A program made the translations under genes and the position numbers. From Candidatus Saccharimonadales bacterium (GTDB taxonomy: Bacteria > Patescibacteriota > Saccharimonadia > Saccharimonadales > EFPC-124), in assembly GCA_050730875.1 (NCBI GenBank), contig JBOHNX010000001.1, forward strand, positions 141,827 through 205,826: a stretch of 64,000 bases of DNA, given 5' to 3'. Below the pieces are notes generated by a model, which ran no database searches, was not told the origin of the DNA, and worked only from the letters and a program-made list of their open reading frames with translations. Positions 1,843 through 27,382 of this stretch are shown one piece after another (positions within the stretch are counted from its first letter, which is position 1; each line of letters begins with the position of its first letter).

Positions 1843-2944
1843 ACTAAAACGCCATGACCCAGATCTAAAATCGTATTTCATAACCGACCGCAAATTTGGT
1901 CCGCAGGCTCATGAAATTATGGCCAAGGCACCATTCGAAGTCGAGCTGAAGCGGATTTACGCTGGTAAACTGCGTCGATACCACCGAGTTGCGTTGTGGC
2001 GGCAGCTTATAGATGTCCGCACAATGGCAAAAAACTTTGGCGATCTATTTCTAGTAGGTCTCGGTATTATGCAGAGCATAAAATTCATTATAAAGGTGAA
2101 GCCGGATGCGGTGTTTACCAAGGGTGGCTTTGTGTGTTTGCCGGTTGGCTTAGCCGCAAGATTATTGGGTATTCCTCTTGTTATTCATGACTCCGATTCG
2201 CACCCTGGCCTGACAAACCGTATTTTAGCCAAGCACGCTAAAGTCATAGGCACTGGTGCGCCGGTTGAACACTACCCGTATCCTAAGGGTCGCACGCATT
2301 ATGTTGGTATTCCGGTTGATCGAGCATTTCGTCCAGCTGACAGCAAAAAACAGCAGCAACTTAAGGCTGAGCTTGGTTTACACGATACAACTAAGCCGCT
2401 TCTTGTGGTTACCGGCGGCGGGCAGGGCGCACGCAACTTAAATCGAGCAGTAGTAAATGTAGCCAGTCAGCTGGTGAACAAACTCGCCATTTTGCACGTT
2501 ACTGGTCAAGGCAACTACAATGAGGTGCTGAAAGCAGCGCCCGAGCATGTCGACTACATTGTGAAGCCGTTTGTACCTGGGCTAGCAACGGCGTTTCGGG
2601 CGGCAGACATGGTTATTACGCGCGCTGGCGCTACTACTATGGTCGAGCTGGCTGCTGCCGCCAAACCTGTCATCATTGTGCCGCACCCTAACCTGGCTGG
2701 CGGCCATCAGCTAAAGAACGCGGCAGTATTTAAGCAAGCTGGTGCGGCAGTGGTGCTTGACGAAGACGAGCTTATTTTGCACCCGCTTCGCCTTAAAAAA
2801 GCAGTGGTAGAGCTCCTGGAGAAGCCAGCAGTGCGCGCAAAGTTGGGTAAGGCGTTGCACCGCTTCGCAAAGCCTTACGCAGCGCTTGACATGGCAGCGT
2901 TGATTGTCGAGGCTGCTTGTGTAAACAAAAAACAACGTGGTTAA
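1775..2944 (+). CDS. murG: UDP-GlcNAc:lipid I N-acetylglucosaminyltransferase MurG
   Basis: N-terminal GGGSGGHVTP loop and C-terminal RAGATTMVELAAAAKPVIIVP...GHQLKNA, both typical of MurG. dcw order supports the call. Confidence 0.93.
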   Translation: MTIVCAGGGSGGHVTPVLAVLHELKRHDPDLKSYFITDRKFGPQAHEIMAKAPFEVELKRIYAGKLRRYHRVALWRQLIDVRTMAKNFGDLFLVGLGIMQSIKFIIKVKPDAVFTKGGFVCLPVGLAARLLGIPLVIHDSDSHPGLTNRILAKHAKVIGTGAPVEHYPYPKGRTHYVGIPVDRAFRPADSKKQQQLKAELGLHDTTKPLLVVTGGGQGARNLNRAVVNVASQLVNKLAILHVTGQGNYNEVLKAAPEHVDYIVKPFVPGLATAFRAADMVITRAGATTMVELAAAAKPVIIVPHPNLAGGHQLKNAAVFKQAGAAVVLDEDELILHPLRLKKAVVELLEKPAVRAKLGKALHRFAKPYAALDMAALIVEAACVNKKQRG

Positions 2945-2958
2945 GCTACACTAGTACT

Positions 2959-3873
2959 ATGTTCTGGCGAAAACAAAAAGAACCCGTTCGACAGCCACGG
3001 CTTATGGCCGGGCAAGATGATTACGTGTTTCGACGGAGCCGGACGCTAACGGGCAGCGTGTCGTCGCAGGTTACTGCAACGGCAGAAAAGCGCGGGCAAC
3101 TGAAGACCGACCGGTTAAAGTTGCACGAGCTAAAGGCGCATCGCCGGCATGTGCTGCGGCTGCTCGGCGTGGTTTTGCTGGCCTTGGGCGTGATGGTGTT
3201 TTTGCTTGCGAATTTTATTGTTTCACCACAGATTGCCAGTGCAGAACCAGGCGTTCGCCAGGCTGATGCTTCGAAGTACCACCAAGCTATTTACACGTAT
3301 TTTGGTGATCATCCGCTGGAGCGTTTTGGGTTTGCACTGAATGCCGAAGAGTTTCAGGAGCATCTTAAGCAGTCGCACGATGAGGTGCGTAGCGTAACGG
3401 TTGAGCGTGATTGGTATGGTGGTGACGTGCGTTTTATTTTGTATTTTCGGCAGCCGCTTTTGGTGTGGCGGAGTGCGGGCCAGCAGTTTTATGTAGATAA
3501 TCAGGGTGTTGCGTTTGACTACAATCATTTTGTTGAGCCGACGGTGGCGGTGGAGGACCAGTCCGGTATTACACCGGATCAAGCTTCGGGGGCAGTGGCG
3601 TCTACCCGATTCCTTGGTTTTTTGGGGCGTACGGTGGGTGCGATTAACTCCTATAACAAGGGTAAGGTCGTTGCGGTTATTATTCCGCGGTCGACTCGGC
3701 AAATTGATATTAAACTGGAGGGTCGCGATTATATTATTAAGACGCATATCGACCGCGATCCCCTGCAACAGGCTGAAGATATTGCTAATGCACTCAAGTA
3801 CTTCGATGTGCATGGTATTAAGCCGCAGTATGTTGATGTGCGGGTGGCGCACAAGGCGTTTTATAAGAATTAA
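2959..3873 (+). CDS. ftsQ: FtsQ/DivIB-like cell-division protein (single TM + POTRA-like domain)
   Basis: ORF 2917..3873; the Met at 2959 (MFWRKQ) is the more likely start. It has a TM helix (LLGVVLLALGVMVFLLANF) followed by a POTRA-like segment (VRSVTVERDWYGGDVRFILYFRQPLLVW...YVDNQGVAF). It lies after murG. Confidence 0.7.
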   Translation: MFWRKQKEPVRQPRLMAGQDDYVFRRSRTLTGSVSSQVTATAEKRGQLKTDRLKLHELKAHRRHVLRLLGVVLLALGVMVFLLANFIVSPQIASAEPGVRQADASKYHQAIYTYFGDHPLERFGFALNAEEFQEHLKQSHDEVRSVTVERDWYGGDVRFILYFRQPLLVWRSAGQQFYVDNQGVAFDYNHFVEPTVAVEDQSGITPDQASGAVASTRFLGFLGRTVGAINSYNKGKVVAVIIPRSTRQIDIKLEGRDYIIKTHIDRDPLQQAEDIANALKYFDVHGIKPQYVDVRVAHKAFYKN

Positions 3874-3888
3874 GCGGATGACCCGACC

Positions 3889-4023
3889 GCTGCTTTTCGT
3901 ACTATTCCTTCACAGAGCAAATGTGCCCGCTCTTCCTTAACCAACTGAAAGCCCTGAACTACAGGGTTTCAGTTGGTTACTCCAGAGCTACGATCCTCTG
4001 TGAAGGAATAGTACGAGCGCAGC
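3889..4023. repeat. 135-nt nested inverted repeat (rod-like hairpin)
   Basis: 3898-3917 is perfectly complementary to 3996-4015 (20 bp). The helix is extended by 3889-3893/4019-4023. An inner helix pairs 3929-3933 with 3984-3988. The innermost helix pairs 3938-3956 with 3962-3979 (18 bp, one bulge, 5-nt loop). Confidence 0.85.
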
Positions 4024-4305
4024 ATATCCTGGGGTATGCGGAAGAGGGTAGGGCGGAGGAGCTTTACTTACTAGGAGTCGCAAAGCTAAAAAGCCTACGG
4101 CATCACCCGCTCGATGGATAACTTATTGCTTGTGTTGATTAGCGGCAGAAGCAGACTACTCCGCTGCTCTCTTTTATGTTCTAATTTTGTTCTTGCTTTA
4201 AGTTATAGACCCACTCCAATATCGAAAAAACTATATAAAAATATTAAATTCAAAAAAAGCAAATAGTGTAGGGCGGAGGGTGGTAGGGAGTCGTGAAAAA
4301 ATATT

Positions 4306-4527
4306 ATGAAAATACAAAAAAGCAAATTTGCAAATGCGACTGTGGAAAAGTCAAATTACGACATGGCACGTTTTATGGGGTGCTGCCAGTCGGCTGGCGA
4401 CCTAAGCCGGTCGACAGTACAATACAAGTTTAAATGTAGCGGTGCGCGTAGTGTAATTACAGCCACATTAACGCCAAACTCCCGGAAAACTCCCCTAGTA
4501 AGACGATGTACCAATCATCTTCAGTAA
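4306..4527 (+). CDS. hypothetical small protein (very uncertain; alternative 46-codon GTG frame at 4293..4433)
   Basis: This is the only ORF of at least 60 aa in the 955-bp gap. GGAGG/GGGAG motifs lie upstream (4276-4290). A perfect 11-bp hairpin (4532-4542/4559-4569) follows the stop. No recognisable family. Confidence 0.2.
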   Translation: MKIQKSKFANATVEKSNYDMARFMGCCQSAGDLSRSTVQYKFKCSGARSVITATLTPNSRKTPLVRRCTNHLQ

Positions 4528-4828
4528 AATAATGTAATGTCGTAAAAGATATATTGTGCGACATTACATCTATATTAAACTATGTACACTTTCATCCATC
4601 TTCAGCCACCAATTTTCTTGTGTTTCGTCTATGATTTTTATGGCTCCTCATTCTTCTACTCGCCCGGGCTGCGTTCTCGCTTTAAACGAGTCATTATGGT
4701 TGTTTGATTACTTTATGTAGATTCATTTTGACTGCTAAACCAATTAACAGGGGTCGACCTCTATTATCGAGTATTCGATAGATTGTGTTCGTATTTTGTT
4801 CGTTTTATTTCTGTATGATTATTACTCC

Positions 4829-7525
4829 CTAGCGTAAGCGAAGTACAAAGTCGTTGTCTTGTTGCTCTTGTTGGGGCTGCGGCTGTTGCTGTTGTGGAGT
4901 GGGGTTTTGAGTCTTAGAACCGCCTCGTTTGCGTCCGCGCGAACGGGAACGCTTGCCGCTACCTGGCGTTGCTTGCTGGCCTGATTGTTGCTGTGGAGCG
5001 GCTGGTGCGGGCTGTGGGGGCTTTTGCGTTTGAGCGGCGGGCGCTGTTGTGGGTTGTTTTGATGGTGGCTGTGTCTGTGGGGCAGTAAATCGACCAGACG
5101 CGGCGGGGATGAGAGTTTGTTTAATCACCTTCTGAATTTCGGCCTCAACTTCTGCCCGAGGTCGCGAGTAATGGCGACGTGTGTTTTCGATAATCTGCGG
5201 CGAGTAGTCATTTTGCGCGGCTGGGAGGGTTAGGGTGGTTGCAGAGAACGCCGGTGCCTTCTCTCCCCTAATGACCATGCTAATGACAAAATGTCGGTTG
5301 TGCATTTGCATGAGGTCAGCGGCTTCAAACTGCGGTTCGAACTGCTTAGAAAGCAGTGGCGCATCGTCGGGGCTGACCCGGAAGGAAATGACAGTACCAA
5401 CGTTCCCGAATACGGCATCGCGTACGGTATCGTTCATCTGTGAAATATATTGGTTGGCTACAGTTAGGTTAAGGCCGTATTTACGTGCCTCACTTAAGAT
5501 AGTTGCAAACGAATCGGTCGCGAAGTTTTGGAATTCGTCCACGTACAGGTAGAACGGCTTGCGATCTTCGATGTGCGGAATATCAGAACGGCTCATGGCG
5601 GCCAGCTGGATTTTGGTTACTAGGAACGAGCCCAGCACGGCGGCGTTGTCTTCCCCTACTAACCCTTTGCTCAGGTTCACGATCAAAATTTTGCCTTCGT
5701 CCATGATTTTACGGATGTTAAAAGTGCTTTTTGGCTGGCCAATGATGTTACGGATGATTGGATTAGCAGTAAAGGCACCCACCTTGTTAAGCACTGGGGC
5801 AATGGCTTCGGCAGCGAATTTATCGTTCCAGCTCGCAAATTCTACCGTCCAGAACTGGCGCACTACGGCGTCATCGACATATGTTAGGACCTCGTTGCGG
5901 AACTTTTTATCGGTGAGCATGCGGGTGATATCGAGTAGTGTTGTGTTTGGATAATCCAAAAGCGCTAAGATTGTGTAGCGCAAGATGTATTCCAAACGTG
6001 GCCCCCAACTTTCGCCGAACATGCGTTTTAGGACACCAATAATTTCAGAACTAATATTGTTCTTCATGGCTGGATTGATGACTTCCATCGGGTTGAAGCC
6101 AATCGGGTATGCTGTGTCTGCTGGGTTAAAGTAGATCACATCCTTGGCGCGCGACTGAGGGATAAACCGCAGGTTGTTAATGGCAAAGTCGCCATGTGGA
6201 TCGATAATGGCGAAACCGTGGTTATGGAAGACGTCGCTGAGTGCAAACAGCTCCAACAGACCAGATTTACCAGTACCGGTTTGGCCAATGATATACACGT
6301 GACGGCCGCGGTCTGAACGGTACAGGCCAAATTGCTGGTTAATCCCGCGGAAGTTCGTTAGACCGAACGCACTTATTTCGGCATCGGCCTCGACACCGAT
6401 GACAACTGGCAGTTTTGCAGGTGGTTCGGCTGTTTTTGAGCTTGCCCAGACGATGTTCGGTGTCTCCACGTTGGTGTGTGGTAAGTGGAAGACACTGGCG
6501 AGCTCTTCGATATTTAAAATGTAGCCGCGATCAATAAAGAACCGCGCACGATATTGCGCCAGGCCGTCGGGCGAGAACGAAGAGTTCTTCATCTGGAAGC
6601 CATTCAGGTTCGTACTGTTGAACTGTTTGAACGTACCAACAATCGCTTGCATGCGCAGTCGGGCGGTTTGTTGGCTGTTACCCAAATACGTCAGCCGTAT
6701 TTTTACTTGGTAGCCTAATTTAATGCTCTTCTTCTCTACTTCGGTGATCCGGCCTTTTTCGCGTTCGCTAATTTCTGCCGGGCCACTGCTGCCTTGATTT
6801 TCTGGTGGTTTCCAGAGAGCTTCAAGCGCACGCAGCAAATAATAGCCAAGACCACCGCCGAGGGCAGCACTACTGCTCCCTCCCCCACTCTTCGCACGGG
6901 CTGTGTAGCGACTGGCTTTGCGGTGCCAGTCATCCGAAATTGGGCGCGCCAATACCTGAATCCACATTTCTTCGCCGGTTTCTTCGAGTTTGGCTAGTGT
7001 AGCGGTCACGGCTGCTAAGGGGTCAACCTCGAAGCTCTGGAATGTTTTAATCGGTAGCACTTCGTTATCGATTAATGAAAGTTCAGCGGTATGCACAACC
7101 TGCTGTTTGATATCGCGAGCTGCGTAATCTTCTTCTGCAACATGAATCTGCACAGTTGGATATTGCGCGTAAATTTGGCCTTCAACAAAGTTTTGCAGGT
7201 ATGTCGGCACCCATACGTAAAAGCGTATGCGTTTGTCGATGGCGGCGATTTCAAAGCTGATGTGTTCCTGCAAGCCGCCCTGCGTGGCAAGCTCACGCTT
7301 CGAGCGCAAAATACCGTGCAAACTGGCGAACATTTGCTCGGCTGCCAGTTCTTGCTTCTCGTTTGTACGAGGGATCTCGAGGATTAATAGGGTGTGGTCA
7401 AGATCACGAACCACCTTAGCTCGACGGTTGTTCCGAAGGGCTAAGTAACCAAGGACTGCGGCGATTGGCAGCCAGATGTACCACTTGCTCAGCAAGCCGA
7501 AAATCAACGAGAGCACCACGTCCAT
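4829..7525 (-). CDS. membrane-anchored VirD4/TraG/TraD-like (FtsK-HerA superfamily) ATPase with P/Q-rich C-terminal tail
   Basis: 898 aa. N-terminal TM helix. Walker A YIIGQTGTGKSG. Walker B-like FYLYVDEFQNF. Coupling-protein-like LNLTVANQYISQ. The last ~110 aa are low-complexity P/Q/G/R. Confidence 0.75.
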   Translation of the reverse strand: MDVVLSLIFGLLSKWYIWLPIAAVLGYLALRNNRRAKVVRDLDHTLLILEIPRTNEKQELAAEQMFASLHGILRSKRELATQGGLQEHISFEIAAIDKRIRFYVWVPTYLQNFVEGQIYAQYPTVQIHVAEEDYAARDIKQQVVHTAELSLIDNEVLPIKTFQSFEVDPLAAVTATLAKLEETGEEMWIQVLARPISDDWHRKASRYTARAKSGGGSSSAALGGGLGYYLLRALEALWKPPENQGSSGPAEISEREKGRITEVEKKSIKLGYQVKIRLTYLGNSQQTARLRMQAIVGTFKQFNSTNLNGFQMKNSSFSPDGLAQYRARFFIDRGYILNIEELASVFHLPHTNVETPNIVWASSKTAEPPAKLPVVIGVEADAEISAFGLTNFRGINQQFGLYRSDRGRHVYIIGQTGTGKSGLLELFALSDVFHNHGFAIIDPHGDFAINNLRFIPQSRAKDVIYFNPADTAYPIGFNPMEVINPAMKNNISSEIIGVLKRMFGESWGPRLEYILRYTILALLDYPNTTLLDITRMLTDKKFRNEVLTYVDDAVVRQFWTVEFASWNDKFAAEAIAPVLNKVGAFTANPIIRNIIGQPKSTFNIRKIMDEGKILIVNLSKGLVGEDNAAVLGSFLVTKIQLAAMSRSDIPHIEDRKPFYLYVDEFQNFATDSFATILSEARKYGLNLTVANQYISQMNDTVRDAVFGNVGTVISFRVSPDDAPLLSKQFEPQFEAADLMQMHNRHFVISMVIRGEKAPAFSATTLTLPAAQNDYSPQIIENTRRHYSRPRAEVEAEIQKVIKQTLIPAASGRFTAPQTQPPSKQPTTAPAAQTQKPPQPAPAAPQQQSGQQATPGSGKRSRSRGRKRGGSKTQNPTPQQQQPQPQQEQQDNDFVLRLR

Positions 7526-7597: not shown

Positions 7598-8647
7598 CTA
7601 TTCTTTGTCTTCTTCTGCCAGTGCATATGTCGCCTTAGCCACCCGCTTAAAGCGCTGTTTGCCCTGGAGGTTGAGCAAGATAGTCGTTTCTTTCACCTGA
7701 CGGTGCTTGAGGACTCGACGAACAATTTCATCACGGTGCAATGGACCACCCTCTTTTTTGAGGATGTCGGTAATGATGTCGGCAACGGTACCCTTCTTAA
7801 AGCCCCAATCCTTGAGTGCGTAAATACCACGGCCAATCAACACAAAACGGCTGTCTTTAATGAGCTCGTTGTGAATAGCCTGGGTTGTAACATCTTTACG
7901 GCGGAAATCAGACTCTTTAATTGACTTCGCGATGTCGCTAAAGTGCATTGGTTTACCGTTTTCTTGTAGGACAACAAAAATTTTGTCGCGGATGTTTTTA
8001 GGGTTAACGGTTGGCCATTTAGTCAGACCCCAGTGGTCCTTAAGGTTGGCAAGCTCTTTGCTAACCTGTGCGAGCGCGCGGACGTGCGACGGGTGGTCGT
8101 GGTCAAGTTTTTGGTGCAGCTGCTCGATTGTCAGCGGTTCACCTTCTTTTTTGATGGTGCCGACAATGCTATCGACGTGCTTCTTGATTTGTGGTTCGTC
8201 GTGATATTCCTTAATGCCTACCGAGTGGTGGTAGCGGTCGCTTTCCTCGACGACAGTTAGGCGCGGTGCTAGTTCGGCAACAAATGCCACGTGAGCACGG
8301 TCGCGCTCGCTTGGCGCTTTGGCGATACGGGCTGCAAGGTCAGATACTTTGGCAACACGGCCAAGGTCATGCAAGTGACGGATAAGGTGTTTTTCGAGAG
8401 TGGTAATGTGTGGCAAGCTCTCTTCCGCGGCCAGTTTTAGGCGGATCATAATTGCCTTTTCCAGCTGGCGCACACGTTCGCGAGTAATACCAAGAAGCTC
8501 ACCAATTTGCTCGAGTGTTTCTTTGCGGTCGTACAAACCAAAACGACGCGCAATGATTTCGCGCTCTCGCTCTCGTTCTACTGTAATAAGGATATCCTTA
8601 ACAGCTGACTGTAAATCCACCGTCGCCGCTTCAGCGGTATCGCTCAT
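7598..8647 (-). CDS. sigma-70 region-4-like HTH protein fused to two HARE-HTH-like domains
   Basis: The segment REIIARRFGLYDRKETLEQIGELLGITRERVRQLEKAIMIRLK resembles sigma70 region 4. Two C-terminal modules end in DSRFVLIGRGIYALKDWG and QRFKRVAKATYALAEE, like the RpoE-delta HARE-HTH. The Met at 8647 has a GGAAAGG RBS (the ORF track starts at 8689). Confidence 0.6.
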   Translation of the reverse strand: MSDTAEAATVDLQSAVKDILITVEREREREIIARRFGLYDRKETLEQIGELLGITRERVRQLEKAIMIRLKLAAEESLPHITTLEKHLIRHLHDLGRVAKVSDLAARIAKAPSERDRAHVAFVAELAPRLTVVEESDRYHHSVGIKEYHDEPQIKKHVDSIVGTIKKEGEPLTIEQLHQKLDHDHPSHVRALAQVSKELANLKDHWGLTKWPTVNPKNIRDKIFVVLQENGKPMHFSDIAKSIKESDFRRKDVTTQAIHNELIKDSRFVLIGRGIYALKDWGFKKGTVADIITDILKKEGGPLHRDEIVRRVLKHRQVKETTILLNLQGKQRFKRVAKATYALAEEDKE

Positions 8648-8841
8648 ATAACTAACCTTTCCGGGGTTATTTTTTGCCTCAATGTTCATATTACTCTAAC
8701 ACAAATTACTATTGGTGTCAAATAACGAGGGTATAAGTTAATTATAGCATCAACTCGACGTTTTAGGTAGTCTCTGATGTGACAGTTTATAACTGTGGAT
8801 AAATAGTATAAGCGTAAGAGGTATGTAGGAAAATTATATAG

Positions 8842-25321: not shown

Positions 25322-27382
25322 TTACTGAACGGTCAGCAACCAGTCGGCCGCATGTTTTGTCCAAATGGACGCATACTGATAATGCGCACAGTTAGATCCA
25401 TCCGACAAGAAACATTGCTCGAAACCATCCCACGACGTAAAGTTACATATCGGGTCATTGGCTAGACAGTAGCTGGCTGTTTTTCCTGTCAGAGAGGGAG
25501 GCAGTTCGCGTGGGGGCAACCCCCCTGGCCCGGCCGGAGACGACCAAATACCATACAAGCTGGTATCGTATGTTCCTCGATTGAACGTGGATTGCGGGTT
25601 GAATCGAGGATCACCGAAAAGGACTATTCCGTGTATCTGAGCCTGGATCTCTGTAGGGAGCGCAGACGCTACATCTGCAGCGACGTGAGCTCCCTGACTG
25701 TAGCCGGCCAGAATCACATCCGTGGCTGGGCAGTCTTTGTGCAACTGCGTCAGATAACCCGTCAAGGCGTCCACGCCCGCTTTCACGCTTTCGCTGTAAT
25801 CAGCGGGGTAGCTCCTCTGGTAGGGATCAACTGGAACCGCCGGGTATGCCACTGCAGCAACCTGAAGCCCGCTGAGGCCGCCGGCAACCAGCTGATTCTT
25901 GAGATCCTGGATGGTTCTGCCGACTCCCTCGTATTCGAACGGGTTTTCCCCCGAACCACGCACTCCAACGAGCTGAGTGGTCGGGCATGTTACGGGGGTT
26001 GGCCCTATGCCCAGGGTAGCGCTTCTTGGGTAATCCAACCCCAGTCGTTGCAGCGGCACTGCGTACAAACTCTGAGTGCGACCCTGACAGCTAGAAGTGT
26101 CGGCGTTGGTGCAATATCCGATCGACAAGTACAACTTGTCCTGGGACAGAGCCCAGCTTGCGCCTCGGGCAAACCTCGTCGTCTGTTGAAAGTCGAACCA
26201 GTTCGTGTCGAACTGAGCAACCCTGCTCAAGTCTGGCCGTTGCAGTGTGAATTGCCAGCCACGCAGGATCTTGCTACCGCTCCTCCAGTTGTACTGCCTT
26301 GTGAGCAAGATGTTTCCATTTCCATCCGCTCTCACGATTGCCGGCAGAAAACTATTGGAGGTAGAGCCCAGATCGGTGAAGGTCCGATAATCCTCAGTAG
26401 TGCTCAGCGTCGAGCTGCGAACAGTGTAGCTGCTGTCGTTTGGCGTGTAAGAGAGAAGGACCGGTTGACCCGCGTCGTTGTACGCTACAACTGTTGCTCC
26501 ACCATTCGTGGTTGCAGTGGTGCTCGCGATGTTCCAGCACGACGACCAACTGAACTTGAAGATCCTGCCTGTTGTGGGAGTGTACTCTTGGAAGTTGATC
26601 GTTTTGTATCGGTTGACGCATGTGCCGCTAGAGCTCTGGAAGTCTTCCTGGAACACACGCCCATCGATATTCGCTGCACGAATCCAACCGCCCGAGCCCG
26701 CCTGTGAGAGATTGGTTGGCATGTAGTCGGATCCGTCATGCTTGATGTACCGAATGGTGCGGAGTGTGTTCTGCAGAATGACACCATACTGGTAAGCGCT
26801 GAACCATGTAACAGTTGCCTTGCCGAGGTTTTTCTCGAACAAAATACGACCAGTTGATGGGTCGATTTTGTTGAGGAAGTTGCCCGTCTGGCATTTGTTG
26901 TCGACAGAAACTGCGTACAGGTATCCGTCGACACCAACTGTCATCGATTTGAGTGCGCGGTCGACAAGCCCGTATGTGCTGCAGTACGATCGAAGGCTAA
27001 TCTCCCACGTCAACGTGGTGCCACGATATGCAACTACGGTATAACGCCCGCTCCTGTTGTCGGTATAACCGAATACCGTCCCATCTTTTGCGACGGCGCC
27101 CTGCGACCAGCACACGTATGTGTACTTTCCGGTGACCTGGGGCACAGTTGCGCTGATCGTGCCGTCTGGTGCGAAAGTCTTGAAGGCGGTGGAACCGGAG
27201 CTGGCGCAGTTGGCAGCGACAACGCTACCGTTTGCAGTCGACATGACGTAGTCGCTCTGCAAGTCGCTGGTGTCCTGTGGCCACGCGGGACTTACGGCTT
27301 CCGCAGGACTAATAGCCCAAAACGATTGCAGGAGCATGACGAGCACCGGGATGAGCAATTTGCGGCTTAACCCTTGCATCAC
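25322..27382 (-). CDS. secreted two-domain protein: ~430-aa unknown (beta-rich) N-domain + C-terminal cutinase-family serine esterase
   Basis: Signal peptide MMQGLSRKLLIPVLVMLLQSFWAISPAEA. The cutinase domain spans aa ~466-675 (LVGVRGSGE). The nucleophile elbow is GYSQGA (Ser codon at 25697-25699). Also has NDPIC and CAHYQY. A GGAAGGTGA RBS is present. GC-richer than its neighbours. Confidence 0.75.
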   Translation of the reverse strand: MMQGLSRKLLIPVLVMLLQSFWAISPAEAVSPAWPQDTSDLQSDYVMSTANGSVVAANCASSGSTAFKTFAPDGTISATVPQVTGKYTYVCWSQGAVAKDGTVFGYTDNRSGRYTVVAYRGTTLTWEISLRSYCSTYGLVDRALKSMTVGVDGYLYAVSVDNKCQTGNFLNKIDPSTGRILFEKNLGKATVTWFSAYQYGVILQNTLRTIRYIKHDGSDYMPTNLSQAGSGGWIRAANIDGRVFQEDFQSSSGTCVNRYKTINFQEYTPTTGRIFKFSWSSCWNIASTTATTNGGATVVAYNDAGQPVLLSYTPNDSSYTVRSSTLSTTEDYRTFTDLGSTSNSFLPAIVRADGNGNILLTRQYNWRSGSKILRGWQFTLQRPDLSRVAQFDTNWFDFQQTTRFARGASWALSQDKLYLSIGYCTNADTSSCQGRTQSLYAVPLQRLGLDYPRSATLGIGPTPVTCPTTQLVGVRGSGENPFEYEGVGRTIQDLKNQLVAGGLSGLQVAAVAYPAVPVDPYQRSYPADYSESVKAGVDALTGYLTQLHKDCPATDVILAGYSQGAHVAADVASALPTEIQAQIHGIVLFGDPRFNPQSTFNRGTYDTSLYGIWSSPAGPGGLPPRELPPSLTGKTASYCLANDPICNFTSWDGFEQCFLSDGSNCAHYQYASIWTKHAADWLLTVQ

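What the first reader, a model, noticed from the sequence alone, without database searches (positions are those of the whole stretch)
4024..4828. About 800 bp of gene-free, motif-rich DNA between convergent genes, downstream of the VirD4-like ATPase
For a compact genome this gap is very large. It contains three kinds of repeat or hairpin. (a) A 12-mer GTAGGGCGGAGG occurs twice (4048-4059 and 4268-4279). It reads as SD-like on + and as anti-SD-like CCUCCGCCCUAC on -. (b) An A-tract direct repeat AAAAATATTA...CAAAAAA(A)GCAAAT occurs at 4237-4264 and 4297-4327, about 60 bp apart. (c) Local hairpins lie at 4048-4107 and at 4532-4542/4559-4569 (perfect 11 bp). There are two competing small ORFs. 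One is a Cys-rich 46-codon GTG frame at 4293..4433 (MKKYYENTKKQICKCDCGKVKLRHGTFYGVLPVGWRPKPVDSTIQV). The other is the 73-aa ORF at 4306..4527. The region could hold one or more ncRNAs, a micro-protein gene, or a cis-acting DNA site (ter/dif-like, or a transfer-related site given the adjacent coupling-protein-like ATPase).
Basis: seen in the sequence. Interest (0 to 1): 0.6.

Follow-up and report, generated by a model that had tools for sequence, protein, structure and literature searches.

The report
Chromosomal Xer/dif-type recombination site of Saccharibacteria
The gene-free gap holds a 28-bp recombination site of the kind bacteria use to untangle their chromosomes, in a sequence version found so far only in the tiny CPR bacteria, and filamentous phages insert at that same site in relatives.

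Summary
The gap is larger than stated (3874-4828, 955 bp) and lies between the FtsQ-like gene that ends the cell-division cluster and a VirD4-like ATPase.

It is a 28-mer, ATGTCGTAAAA-GATATA-TTGTGCGACAT (4537-4564), built like a dif site: 11-bp imperfect inverted arms around a 6-bp centre.
- It occurs once per contig in 3 Saccharimonadales genomes, at least 120 metagenome contigs and 18 IMG/VR contigs.
- A Xer-family recombinase gene is its neighbour in 13 loci.
- In relatives, filamentous prophages without an integrase (Zot-like ATPase, rolling-circle Rep) sit between the intact 28-mer and a second site. That site keeps only the centre and right arm.
- A 4,058-bp circular phage-like genome carries the same partial site.

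The best reading is a Xer/dif-type site that phages exploit. In Saccharibacteria it is flanked by conserved DNA: GTTC-N7-GTTC boxes on both sides, a DnaA box, and A-tracts.

The small ORFs are not conserved. There is no Rfam match and no covarying RNA helix. The first GTAGGGCGGAGG copy lies in a window-specific 260-nt insert.

Main caveat: GC skew does not change sign at the site, so it does not map to a skew-defined terminus.

The parts
2917..3873 (+). 318-aa FtsQ-like last gene of the ftsW-murG cell-division cluster; left border of the gap
   Evidence: ORF. No Pfam or NCBIfam hit. Homologues sit at the same position in 37 loci, ending 324-540 nt before the core in typical loci.
3874..4135 (+). 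Window-specific insert of about 260 nt. It holds a long hairpin (about 3889-4024, with 21-bp perfect outer arms 3897-3917/3996-4016) and the first GTAGGGCGGAGG copy (4048-4059).
   Evidence: Absent from L001-L003. Inverted repeats. RNA fold -110 kcal/mol, z = -7.3. No other copy in the window.
4156..4175 (+). Pyrimidine tract, complementary to the purine tract at 4265-4291
   Evidence: Complementarity within one sequence is stronger than between sequences (permutation p = 0.004).
4177..4192 (+). Left GTTC-N7-GTTC box (TGTTCTAATTTTGTTC), a tandem direct repeat with an 11-bp period
   Evidence: Present at -300 to -440 from the core, on the + strand, in nearly all Saccharibacteria loci.
4225..4264 (+).
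   Evidence: Conserved across about 35 Saccharibacteria loci.
4265..4291 (+). Purine tract containing the second GTAGGGCGGAGG copy (4268-4279)
   Evidence: A G/A-rich tract is present in all Saccharibacteria loci, but its sequence varies. Complementary to the pyrimidine tract and to the C box.
4292..4327 (+). CGTGAAAAA plus the second AAAAAAGCAAAT copy. This conserved DNA overlaps the starts of both small ORFs.
   Evidence: The ORFs themselves are not conserved.
4341..4349 (-). DnaA-box consensus (TTTTCCACA on the - strand)
   Evidence: TT[AT]TCCACA lies at -170 to -340 from the core on the - strand in about 40 Saccharibacteria loci. It is mirrored at +178 to +347 on the + strand in 16 loci of the Xer-adjacent lineage. 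It is the only such box in the gap.
4487..4520 (+). CCCCT box and GACG..AATCATCT block upstream of the core
   Evidence: CCCC(T) is enriched at -60 to -20 or at +40 to +80 from the core. Conserved. No conserved helix found.
4537..4564 (+). Core 28-mer ATGTCGTAAAA|GATATA|TTGTGCGACAT: the proposed Xer/dif-type recombination site (left arm 4537-4547, centre 4548-4553, right arm 4554-4564)
4786..4801 (+). Right GTTC-N7-GTTC box (TGTTCGTATTTTGTTC), in direct orientation to the left box
   Evidence: Present at +180 to +305 on the + strand in most Saccharibacteria loci. In L035 both the core and the second site are followed by such a box at +223/+225.
4829..7525 (-). 898-aa VirD4/TraD-like ATPase (HerA/FtsK-superfamily P-loop); right border of the gap
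   Evidence: Pfam TrwB_AAD_bind, DUF87, TraG-D_C. NCBIfam TraD-type, below the cut-offs. 66-85% identical and syntenic in Saccharibacteria loci.

Best explanation
The gap carries the chromosome's Xer/dif-type site-specific recombination site.

Shown:
- A 28-bp core (4537-4564) has two 11-bp imperfect inverted arms around a 6-bp centre.
- It occurs once per genome and is conserved far beyond its surroundings.
- In relatives it is the insertion point of filamentous prophages that carry no integrase.

Inferred mechanism:
- A host Xer-family tyrosine recombinase binds the two arms and exchanges strands in the GATATA centre. This resolves chromosome dimers or catenanes.
- Filamentous phages carry a partial copy of the site (own left arm, identical centre and right arm) and use the same enzyme to integrate. 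That leaves an intact core on the dcw (cell-division gene cluster) side and a hybrid site at the far end.

More tentative:
- The roughly 360 bp to the left and 250 bp to the right of the core, conserved in Saccharibacteria, may be accessory DNA that controls the reaction, as in plasmid cer/psi sites. This DNA includes direct GTTC-N7-GTTC boxes on both sides, one DnaA box, A-tracts and purine/pyrimidine tracts.
- In this window the site is empty; no prophage is inserted.
For: (1) Architecture. The arms ATGTCGTAAAA and ATGTCGCACAA (reverse complement of the right arm) match at 9 of 11 positions, with a 6-bp centre.

(2) Conservation. The core is identical in 3 genomes found through MurG at about 60% protein identity, differing only at 2 centre positions, while the flanks diverge. 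At least 120 distinct metagenome contigs and 18 IMG/VR contigs match the arms exactly. Nine variants of the three free centre bases were seen among the metagenome and genome loci.

(3) Copy number. There is one copy per contig, including 11 contigs of 333-973 kb.

(4) Similarity to classical dif. A profile built from 46 published dif sites (Kono 2011 supplement, PMC3025954) ranks the core 3rd of 128,000 positions in the window, in the same register and orientation. By my in-register count it shares 16-18 of 28 positions with E. coli, B. subtilis and an acidobacterial dif. Validated archaeal dif sites share 14-18 of 28 with the bacterial consensus (PMC2958812).

(5) Recombinase. A 310-322-aa Xer-family recombinase is the neighbouring gene in 13 loci. 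Its scores are XerD 244.5 and XerC 244.4 bits, both below their cut-offs, and XerA_Arch 222.4 bits against a cut-off of 220.

(6) Prophage junctions. In L134, L136, L137, L139, L140, L141, L096 and L035 the intact core is followed 2.2-5.9 kb later by a second site in the same orientation. That site has exact GATATATTGTGCGAC but an unrelated left arm. In the IMG/VR prophage loci the DNA between the sites encodes a Zot-like ATPase (phrog_197), a rolling-circle Rep (phrog_3419) and small coat-like proteins, and no Xer-like recombinase. The shorter L035 insert carries three ORFs; none looks like an integrase, and the two tested had no PHROG match.

(7) Free phage genomes. The complete circular 4,058-bp record MH616791.1 (Rep, coat protein, Zot) carries ATGTCAAGATATATTGTGCGACAT. 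L128 is a 3.9-kb contig made only of phage-like genes and holds the exact 28-mer.

(8) Extra half-sites. Ten extra copies of ATTGTGCGAC were found against about 1.7 expected by chance, and all ten are on the core's strand.

(9) Flank swapping. Three types of right flank alternate exactly at the edge of the core among oral Saccharibacteria strains.
Against: - GC skew at 4-fold degenerate sites does not change sign at the core. The strand term is +0.34 left and +0.15 right in Saccharibacteria, and -0.46 left and -0.51 right in the Xer-adjacent lineage. The window's cumulative skew rises through all 64 kb. So the site is not at a skew-defined terminus within the DNA available, unlike classical dif.
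- The profile score against classical dif is only 2.2 bits. Genuine sites score 18.6-40.6 bits, and the hallmark GATAA/TTATG inner arms are replaced.
- No xer gene lies in the 64-kb window. The rest of the genome was not available.
- The invariance of the arms in the metagenome and viral sets is partly built in, because the search pattern fixed 21 of the 24 bases.
- The + strand hairpin is more stable than the - strand one (-8.0 against -2.6 kcal/mol) through T·G pairs. This would also fit an RNA or single-strand role.
- The accessory-sequence idea rests only on conservation and fixed spacing.
Confidence: 0.75

Rival explanations
1. The core is only a phage or mobile-element attachment site, used by some recombinase other than the host Xer. 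It has no role in chromosome dimer resolution.
For: The direct evidence for recombination comes from prophage junctions. The site is not at a GC-skew switch.
Against: The core is kept unchanged in most loci that carry no prophage, this window included. A pure attB has no reason to be conserved this strongly. The prophage loci contain no Xer-like recombinase. A host xer gene adjoins the site in 13 loci.
Confidence: 0.1
2. The conserved gap encodes a structured non-coding RNA on the + strand, for example the 3' UTR of the dcw operon. The core would be a protein-binding hairpin, and the pyrimidine, purine and CCCCT tracts would form long-range helices.
For: The + strand hairpin is favoured through U·G pairs. 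The tracts are more complementary within a sequence than between sequences (p about 0.004-0.005). The CCCC(T) box is strand-specific.
Against: No Rfam family matches. The core stem never covaries, and RNAalifold finds no other conserved helix. Partial copies keep one arm plus the centre, which makes no sense for a hairpin. The DnaA box flips both strand and side between lineages. In some lineages the whole intergenic space is only about 100-180 nt. The upstream gene differs between lineages, and in one lineage it is on the opposite strand.
Confidence: 0.07
3. The region is a replication-control locus: a replication origin, a terminator, or a DnaA-titrating site like datA or DARS. The DnaA box, A-tracts and repeats would be its working parts, and the core a binding site for a replication protein.
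For: A conserved DnaA box lies about 200 bp from the core in two lineages. In the Xer-adjacent lineage CGTGAAAA repeats resemble iterons. The DNA is AT-rich.
Against: There is only one consensus DnaA box, and the window holds no more matches to the box pattern than chance gives. Genes converge on the site instead of diverging. Skew shows no sign change. In a closed Saccharibacteria genome the origin was placed between dnaN and dnaA (PMC6031116). Lineages with short gaps lack the box entirely.
Confidence: 0.05
4. The gap encodes a micro-protein: the 46-codon GTG ORF or the 73-aa ORF.
For: A GGGAG sequence lies 4 nt upstream of the GTG at 4293. The first roughly 20 codons overlap conserved DNA.
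Against: tblastn against about 120 related loci gives only E >= 0.04, restricted to the conserved DNA block, and both overlapping frames score alike. In L001 and L002 the block is read in another frame with an early stop. No Pfam hit.
Confidence: 0.03

Closest known systems
Classical bacterial dif / XerCD (E. coli, B. subtilis; 28 bp)
   Same: 28 bp arranged as 11-6-11 with partial dyad symmetry. AT-rich centre (GATATA against TGTATA or TATATA). One copy per chromosome. Used by filamentous phages that lack an integrase. 16-18 of 28 positions are identical in register.
   Different: The conserved inner-arm motifs GATAA and TTATG are replaced by TAAAA and TTGTG, and the outer GTCG/CGAC is palindromic. 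The profile score is far below that of true dif sites. The site is not at a GC-skew switch. FtsK/KOPS control is unknown.
Single-recombinase Xer systems: XerA/dif (Archaea), XerS/difSL (streptococci), XerH/difH (Helicobacter)
   Same: A divergent dif sequence. A single Xer-like gene lies next to the site in one lineage, as in the XerS, XerH and crenarchaeal XerA modules. That recombinase passes NCBIfam's XerA model. Archaeal dif sites also have conserved flanks (PMC2958812).
   Different: In Saccharibacteria the recombinase gene is not adjacent. The site sequence is unrelated to difSL or difH. No activity has been tested.
IMEX: integrative mobile elements exploiting Xer (CTXphi, VGJphi, TLCphi of Vibrio; Xanthomonas and Neisseria filamentous phages)
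   Same: Inovirus-type gene sets (Rep, Zot, coat) without an integrase. They are integrated at the dif-type site, in tandem arrays, with an attP that copies only part of the site. An intact site is rebuilt at one end.
   Different: The hosts are Saccharibacteria (CPR). The site sequence is different. Dependence on Xer is inferred, not shown.
Plasmid cer/psi sites with accessory sequences (ArgR/PepA; ArcA/PepA)
   Same: A Xer core with about 200 bp of conserved flanking DNA. The flanks carry tandem direct-repeat boxes with an 11-bp period, like the ArcA box GTTA-N7-GTTA (that comparison is from my own knowledge).
   Different: The boxes lie on both sides of the core and on a chromosome. The binding proteins are unknown. 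The role of the DnaA box has no precedent that I know of.

Membership tests
dif / Xer chromosome dimer resolution site | 28-30 bp: two ~11-bp imperfect inverted arms separated by a 6-8 bp central region | tested here: met
   ATGTCGTAAAA | GATATA | TTGTGCGACAT. The arms match at 9 of 11 positions.
dif / Xer chromosome dimer resolution site | Single copy per chromosome | tested here: met
   One match in the 64-kb window. One per contig in 120 metagenome contigs, including 11 contigs of 333-973 kb.
dif / Xer chromosome dimer resolution site | Sequence match to the classical dif consensus | tested here: not met
   A profile from 46 published dif sites gives 2.2 bits (3rd best of 128,000 positions, correct register). 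True sites score 18.6-40.6 bits.
dif / Xer chromosome dimer resolution site | Located at the replication terminus (GC-skew shift point) | tested here: not met
   Coding strands converge on the site: 84-98% on the + strand to the left and 70-84% on the - strand to the right. But skew at 4-fold sites keeps its sign on both sides in both lineages where it can be measured, and the window's cumulative skew has no extremum. Only 4.5-12 kb of left flank was available.
dif / Xer chromosome dimer resolution site | Cognate Xer tyrosine recombinase encoded by the genome | tested here: inconclusive
   A Xer-family gene adjoins the core in 13 loci. None is in this 64-kb window. The rest of the genome was not available.
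dif / Xer chromosome dimer resolution site | Strand exchange within the central region | tested here: met
   Indirect evidence. Prophage ends and a free phage genome share exactly the centre plus right arm with the core and differ in the left arm.
dif / Xer chromosome dimer resolution site | Activation by FtsK and oriented KOPS-type motifs | not testable with these tools
   This needs a whole chromosome and experiments. TM7x has a gene annotated as ftsK (PMC10768705).
IMEX attachment site | An element without an integrase, bounded by the site and a degenerate copy in direct orientation | tested here: met
   Met in relatives L134, L136, L137, L139, L140, L141, L096 and L035. Not in this window, where the site is empty.
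Single-recombinase xer-dif module (XerS/XerH/XerA type) | Recombinase gene adjacent to its site | tested here: not met
   Not met in the window or in the Saccharibacteria loci. Met in 13 loci of another CPR lineage, at 260-900 nt from the core.
cer/psi-type accessory sequences | About 150-200 bp of flanking DNA bound by accessory proteins that impose resolution selectivity | tested here: inconclusive
   Conserved flanks with GTTC-N7-GTTC boxes at fairly constant distances, copied together with the site in L035. No protein or topology data.
Known structured RNA families (Rfam 15) | Match to a covariance model, or covarying helices | tested here: not met
   No hit at E <= 1 in 3400-5300 and none at gathering score in the gap. 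Only the invariant core hairpin is predicted.
oriC | Cluster of DnaA boxes, skew switch from - to +, diverging genes | tested here: not met
   One box only. Genes converge. No skew switch.
oriT / conjugative transfer site | A nic site with a cognate relaxase and T4SS genes | not tested
   No relaxase was looked for beyond the neighbouring genes. The core also occurs without a VirD4-like neighbour.

The most novel reading that the evidence does not exclude
CPR bacteria may resolve chromosome dimers in a plasmid-like way, at a site that is not at the skew-defined terminus. A single XerA-like recombinase would act on a CPR-specific dif. The selectivity that FtsK/KOPS provide elsewhere would come from conserved accessory DNA on both sides of the core: direct GTTC-N7-GTTC boxes for a response-regulator-type protein and a DnaA box about 200 bp away. 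This would tie dimer resolution, and phage integration, to DnaA or the cell cycle. The neighbouring cell-division genes, and possibly the syntenic HerA/FtsK-superfamily VirD4-like ATPase, could take part.
Probability: 0.2. Interest if true: 0.8.

Novelty: new variant of a known kind. Interest (0 to 1): 0.62.

Why it matters
- It would give the large and poorly understood CPR/Patescibacteria group its first defined dif-type site, a 24-28-bp marker that is single-copy and can be searched for in any assembly.
- It identifies where integrase-less filamentous phages insert in Saccharibacteria. That explains the prophage arrays of oral TM7 and offers a natural, recombinase-ready landing site for genetic tools in these hard-to-manipulate organisms.
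- The off-skew position, the flanking boxes and the DnaA box suggest that control of Xer recombination differs from the FtsK/KOPS model. This can be tested in the Saccharibacteria strains that are now transformable.

Tried and rejected
- Rfam on the gap (E <= 1) and on the whole window: only a chance miRNA-like hit on the core hairpin and three tRNAs elsewhere. ARAGORN found no tmRNA or tRNA in the gap.
- Promoter and terminator scan: no more sites than in shuffled sequence.
- oriC idea: only one DnaA-type box in the gap, and the window holds no more than chance gives.
- KOPS-like reading of TGTGGAWAA: rejected, because the other copies in the window do not point towards the core.
- Small ORFs: no conservation.
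- A helix for the GACG..AATCATCT block: not predicted by RNAalifold.
- Palindrome extension beyond the 28-mer: only weak covariation at positions 2, 4 and 5.
- L096 against L028 as a clean occupied/empty pair: the boundaries did not fall at the core, so it was not used. L096 is explained better by the prophage pattern seen later.
- Exact look-up of the FtsQ-like protein: not on record.
- BLAST of the core against phage and plasmid collections: chance-level hits, except for MH616791.1.
- Search for an OmpR-type regulator in the window: only one receiver-domain protein without a recognised DNA-binding domain.
- Literature: no paper in the library holds the motif string, and none on dif in CPR was found.
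Full report
**Context.** The window comes from a Saccharibacteria (TM7, CPR) genome. Its MurG finds three Candidatus Saccharimonadales/Saccharibacteria MAGs at about 60% identity. The finding lies after the end of the cell-division cluster: mraY fragment, ftsW 580-1842, murG 1775-2944 and a 318-aa FtsQ-like ORF 2917-3873, all on the + strand. To its right, on the - strand, are a VirD4/TraD-like ATPase (4829-7525), a protein with sigma70 region 4 and a HARE-HTH domain, topA and dprA.

**Observation.**
- The gene-free gap is 3874-4828 (955 bp).
- It is not an accident of this genome. The three relatives keep the same gene order and a 650-710 bp gap.
- Aligning the four gaps shows blocks of identity in otherwise diverged DNA.
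- The first roughly 260 nt (3874-4135) are unique to the window. They hold a very stable long hairpin (z = -7.3) and the first GTAGGGCGGAGG copy.

**The core.**
Each has one match, including 11 contigs of 333-973 kb.
- IMG/VR gave 18 more contigs.
- Read as DNA, the site is ATGTCGTAAAA | GATATA | TTGTGCGACAT (4537-4564): 11-bp imperfect inverted arms matching at 9 of 11 positions, around a 6-bp centre. This is the layout of dif sites (PMC5357621).
- Caveat: the pattern fixed 21 bases, so the invariance of the arms in these sets is partly by construction.
- Independent support comes from the three genomes found through MurG. They have the identical block and differ only at two centre bases.
- Further support comes from the unconstrained outer positions, which follow R-T...R-Y, and from the nine variants seen at the three free centre bases.
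- A profile of 46 published dif sites (PMC3025954 supplement) ranks the core 3rd of 128,000 positions in the window, in the same register and strand. Its score is only 2.2 bits against 18.6-40.6 for true sites. By my in-register count it shares 16-18 of 28 positions with classical dif, which is the range reported for validated archaeal dif sites (14-18 of 28; PMC2958812).

**Link to a recombinase.**
- Clustering the neighbouring ORFs of all loci shows that in 13 loci the adjacent gene, 260-900 nt away, is a 310-322-aa tyrosine recombinase.
- It scores about equally on the XerD and XerC models (244 bits, below their cut-offs) and passes the archaeal XerA model (222.4 bits against 220).
- Adjacency of recombinase and site is a hallmark of single-recombinase Xer systems (PMC5357621).
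- No xer gene lies in the 64-kb window.

**Evidence for recombination at the site.**
- Extra copies of the right arm plus centre (ATTGTGCGAC) occur 10 times near cores, against about 1.7 expected by chance. All ten are on the core's strand.
- Most of the IMG/VR contigs are chromosome fragments of oral, low-GC Saccharibacteria. They have murG and the FtsQ-like gene to the left of the core and phage genes to the right.
- In six long contigs (L134, L136, L137, L139, L140, L141), and in L096 and L035, the intact core is followed 2.2-5.9 kb later by a second site in direct orientation. That site has exact GATATATTGTGCGAC but an unrelated left arm.
- In the prophage contigs the DNA between the sites encodes a Zot-like ATPase (phrog_197), a rolling-circle replication initiator (phrog_3419) and small coat-like proteins. 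There is no Xer-like recombinase.
- Three kinds of right flank alternate exactly at the edge of the core among strains, and they follow one another after successive sites. This indicates tandem arrays.
- A complete circular 4,058-bp record, MH616791.1, is annotated with a replication protein, a coat protein and a zonular occludens toxin. It carries ATGTCAAGATATATTGTGCGACAT: the same centre and right arm with a degenerate left arm.
- L128 is a 3.9-kb contig made only of such genes and holds the exact 28-mer.
- This is the pattern of IMEX elements, which integrate at dif using the host Xer. attB x attP rebuilds an intact site on one side and leaves a hybrid on the other.
- Prophages in oral TM7 have been reported (PMC7739484). 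I found no mention of their attachment site in the passages read, and no paper in the library contains the motif.

**What does not fit.**
- Genes converge on the core over at least 10 kb on each side. Coding sequence is 84-98% on the + strand to the left and 70-84% on the - strand to the right. That looks like a terminus.
- Composition says otherwise. I separated a coding-strand term from a strand term using 4-fold degenerate sites.
- In Saccharibacteria the strand term is +0.34 to the left and +0.15 to the right. In the Xer-adjacent lineage it is -0.46 and -0.51.
- The window's cumulative skew rises through all 64 kb, and the atp operon lies on the G-rich + strand.
- Closed Saccharibacteria genomes show ordinary bidirectional skew with the origin at dnaN/dnaA (PMC6031116).
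- So, within the DNA available (4.5-12 kb to the left, 60 kb to the right), the site is not at a skew switch. This feature of classical dif was tested and not met. I therefore call the site dif-type in mechanism, not a member of the classical XerCD-dif family.

**The rest of the gap.** Across about 35-50 Saccharibacteria loci the core sits in a conserved frame. From left to right the frame contains:
- a pyrimidine tract;
- a TGTTCTATTTTTGTTCTA box (window 4177-4192);
- an A-tract/ACTATAT/AAAAAAGCAAAT block (4225-4264);
- a purine tract (4265-4291, holding the second 12-mer);
- CGTGAAAA and a second AAAAAAGCAAAT (4292-4327);
- a DnaA-box consensus on the - strand (4341-4349);
- a CCCCT box;
- the core;
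- about 220 nt further on, a second GTTC-N7-GTTC box in direct orientation (4786-4801).

Three points follow from this frame.
- In L035 the core and the second site are each followed by a box at the same distance (+223 and +225), although the spacer DNA differs. This ties the box to the site.
- The DnaA box recurs in the Xer-adjacent lineage, but mirrored: on the + strand, about 200 bp to the right. That argues for a function at the DNA level and against a single-strand RNA motif.
The first 12-mer copy is part of the lineage-specific insert.

The purine tract is more complementary to the pyrimidine tract and to the CCCCT box within a sequence than between sequences (p about 0.004-0.005). I cannot explain this. 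I read the frame as accessory DNA for the recombination site, by analogy with cer/psi. This step is inference.

**Rivals.**
- Structured RNA: no Rfam hit, no covariation, and half-site copies that make no sense for a hairpin.
- Micro-proteins: not conserved.
- Origin or terminator: a single DnaA box, converging genes and no skew switch.
- oriT: the element also occurs without the VirD4-like neighbour.
- A pure phage attachment site unrelated to dimer resolution cannot be excluded. But it does not explain the conservation in loci without prophages, nor the adjacent host xer gene.

**Verdict.** The gap is a real, conserved cis-acting region. Its centre is a Xer/dif-type recombination site in a CPR-specific sequence variant, empty in this genome and used by filamentous prophages in relatives. 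This is a new variant of a known kind. The odd position relative to skew, the paired boxes and the DnaA box are the parts most worth following up.

Noticed in passing
window 3874-4135: A roughly 260-nt insert found only in this genome. It has a 120-140-nt near-perfect hairpin (21-bp perfect outer arms; RNA fold z = -7.3) and a partial duplicate of the purine tract. It could be a MITE-like palindromic element, an sRNA or a terminator. No other copy exists in the window.
   Followed up: partly
window 4829-7525 (-): The VirD4/TraD-like ATPase (it also hits the HerA central domain DUF87) is 66-85% identical across Saccharibacteria, much more conserved than MurG (35-60%), and is nearly always the first gene to the right of the core. 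No other T4SS gene was identified among the neighbours checked (sigma/delta-like protein, topA, dprA). It might act as a DNA translocase at this site.
   Followed up: no
window 1-64000: Gene orientation and composition disagree. About 72% of the genes to the right of the core are on the - strand, yet the + strand is G- and T-rich at 4-fold sites on both sides, and the atp operon is on the + strand. Either many genes are on the lagging strand here, or the skew is not driven by replication.
   Followed up: partly
L134, L136, L137, L139, L140, L141 (IMG/VR); L096, L044, L028: Oral low-GC Saccharibacteria carry one or more tandem inovirus-like prophages (5-6 kb; Rep, Zot-like ATPase, pIII-like protein and small coat-like proteins) directly to the right of the core. 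Three prophage types are exchanged between strains.
   Followed up: partly
L142 (MH616791.1, 621-640) and L128: A 4,058-bp circular record filed as a plasmid from a mouse sample is an inovirus-like genome with an attP-like partial core inside its rep gene. L128 (3.9 kb) is a similar phage-only contig with the exact 28-mer.
   Followed up: partly
L010-L123, Xer-adjacent lineage, +180 to +300 from the core: A conserved module of TTATCCACA, two CTATATCA repeats 10 nt apart, and two CGTGAAAA..TATAGGA repeats about 21 nt apart. It looks like iterons beside a DnaA box, and lies between the core and a DUF5656 membrane-protein gene.
   Followed up: no
L034 -454, L039 -692, L091 -329: A shortened core-like site, (A/G)TGTCAA(T/C)ATTGTGCGACA, lies 40-200 nt upstream of the xer gene start. 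It may be an autoregulatory binding site.
   Followed up: no
L046 and L067, -300 to -80; L031, L083, L090, -100 to -20; L057 +852: Clusters of additional direct or inverted core-like sites and half-sites next to the core. Some have two left-type or two right-type arms. L057 has them between two paralogous genes of about 160-190 aa. These could be small Xer-dependent modules or invertible segments.
   Followed up: no
L113/L117, -553 to 0: A partial site (ATTGTGCGACAT) and the full core bracket a 146-aa predicted membrane or secreted ORF. This is a minimal cargo flanked by sites.
   Followed up: no
window 26837-26852 (-): A third GTTC-box-like sequence (TGGTCGTATTTTGTTC, one mismatch) lies inside or near the 25322-27382 gene region.
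   Followed up: no
window 7598-8689 (-): A 363-aa protein combines a sigma-70 region 4 with a HARE-HTH domain like that of the RNA polymerase delta subunit. It is syntenic with the VirD4-like gene in Saccharibacteria (57-81% identity).
   Followed up: no
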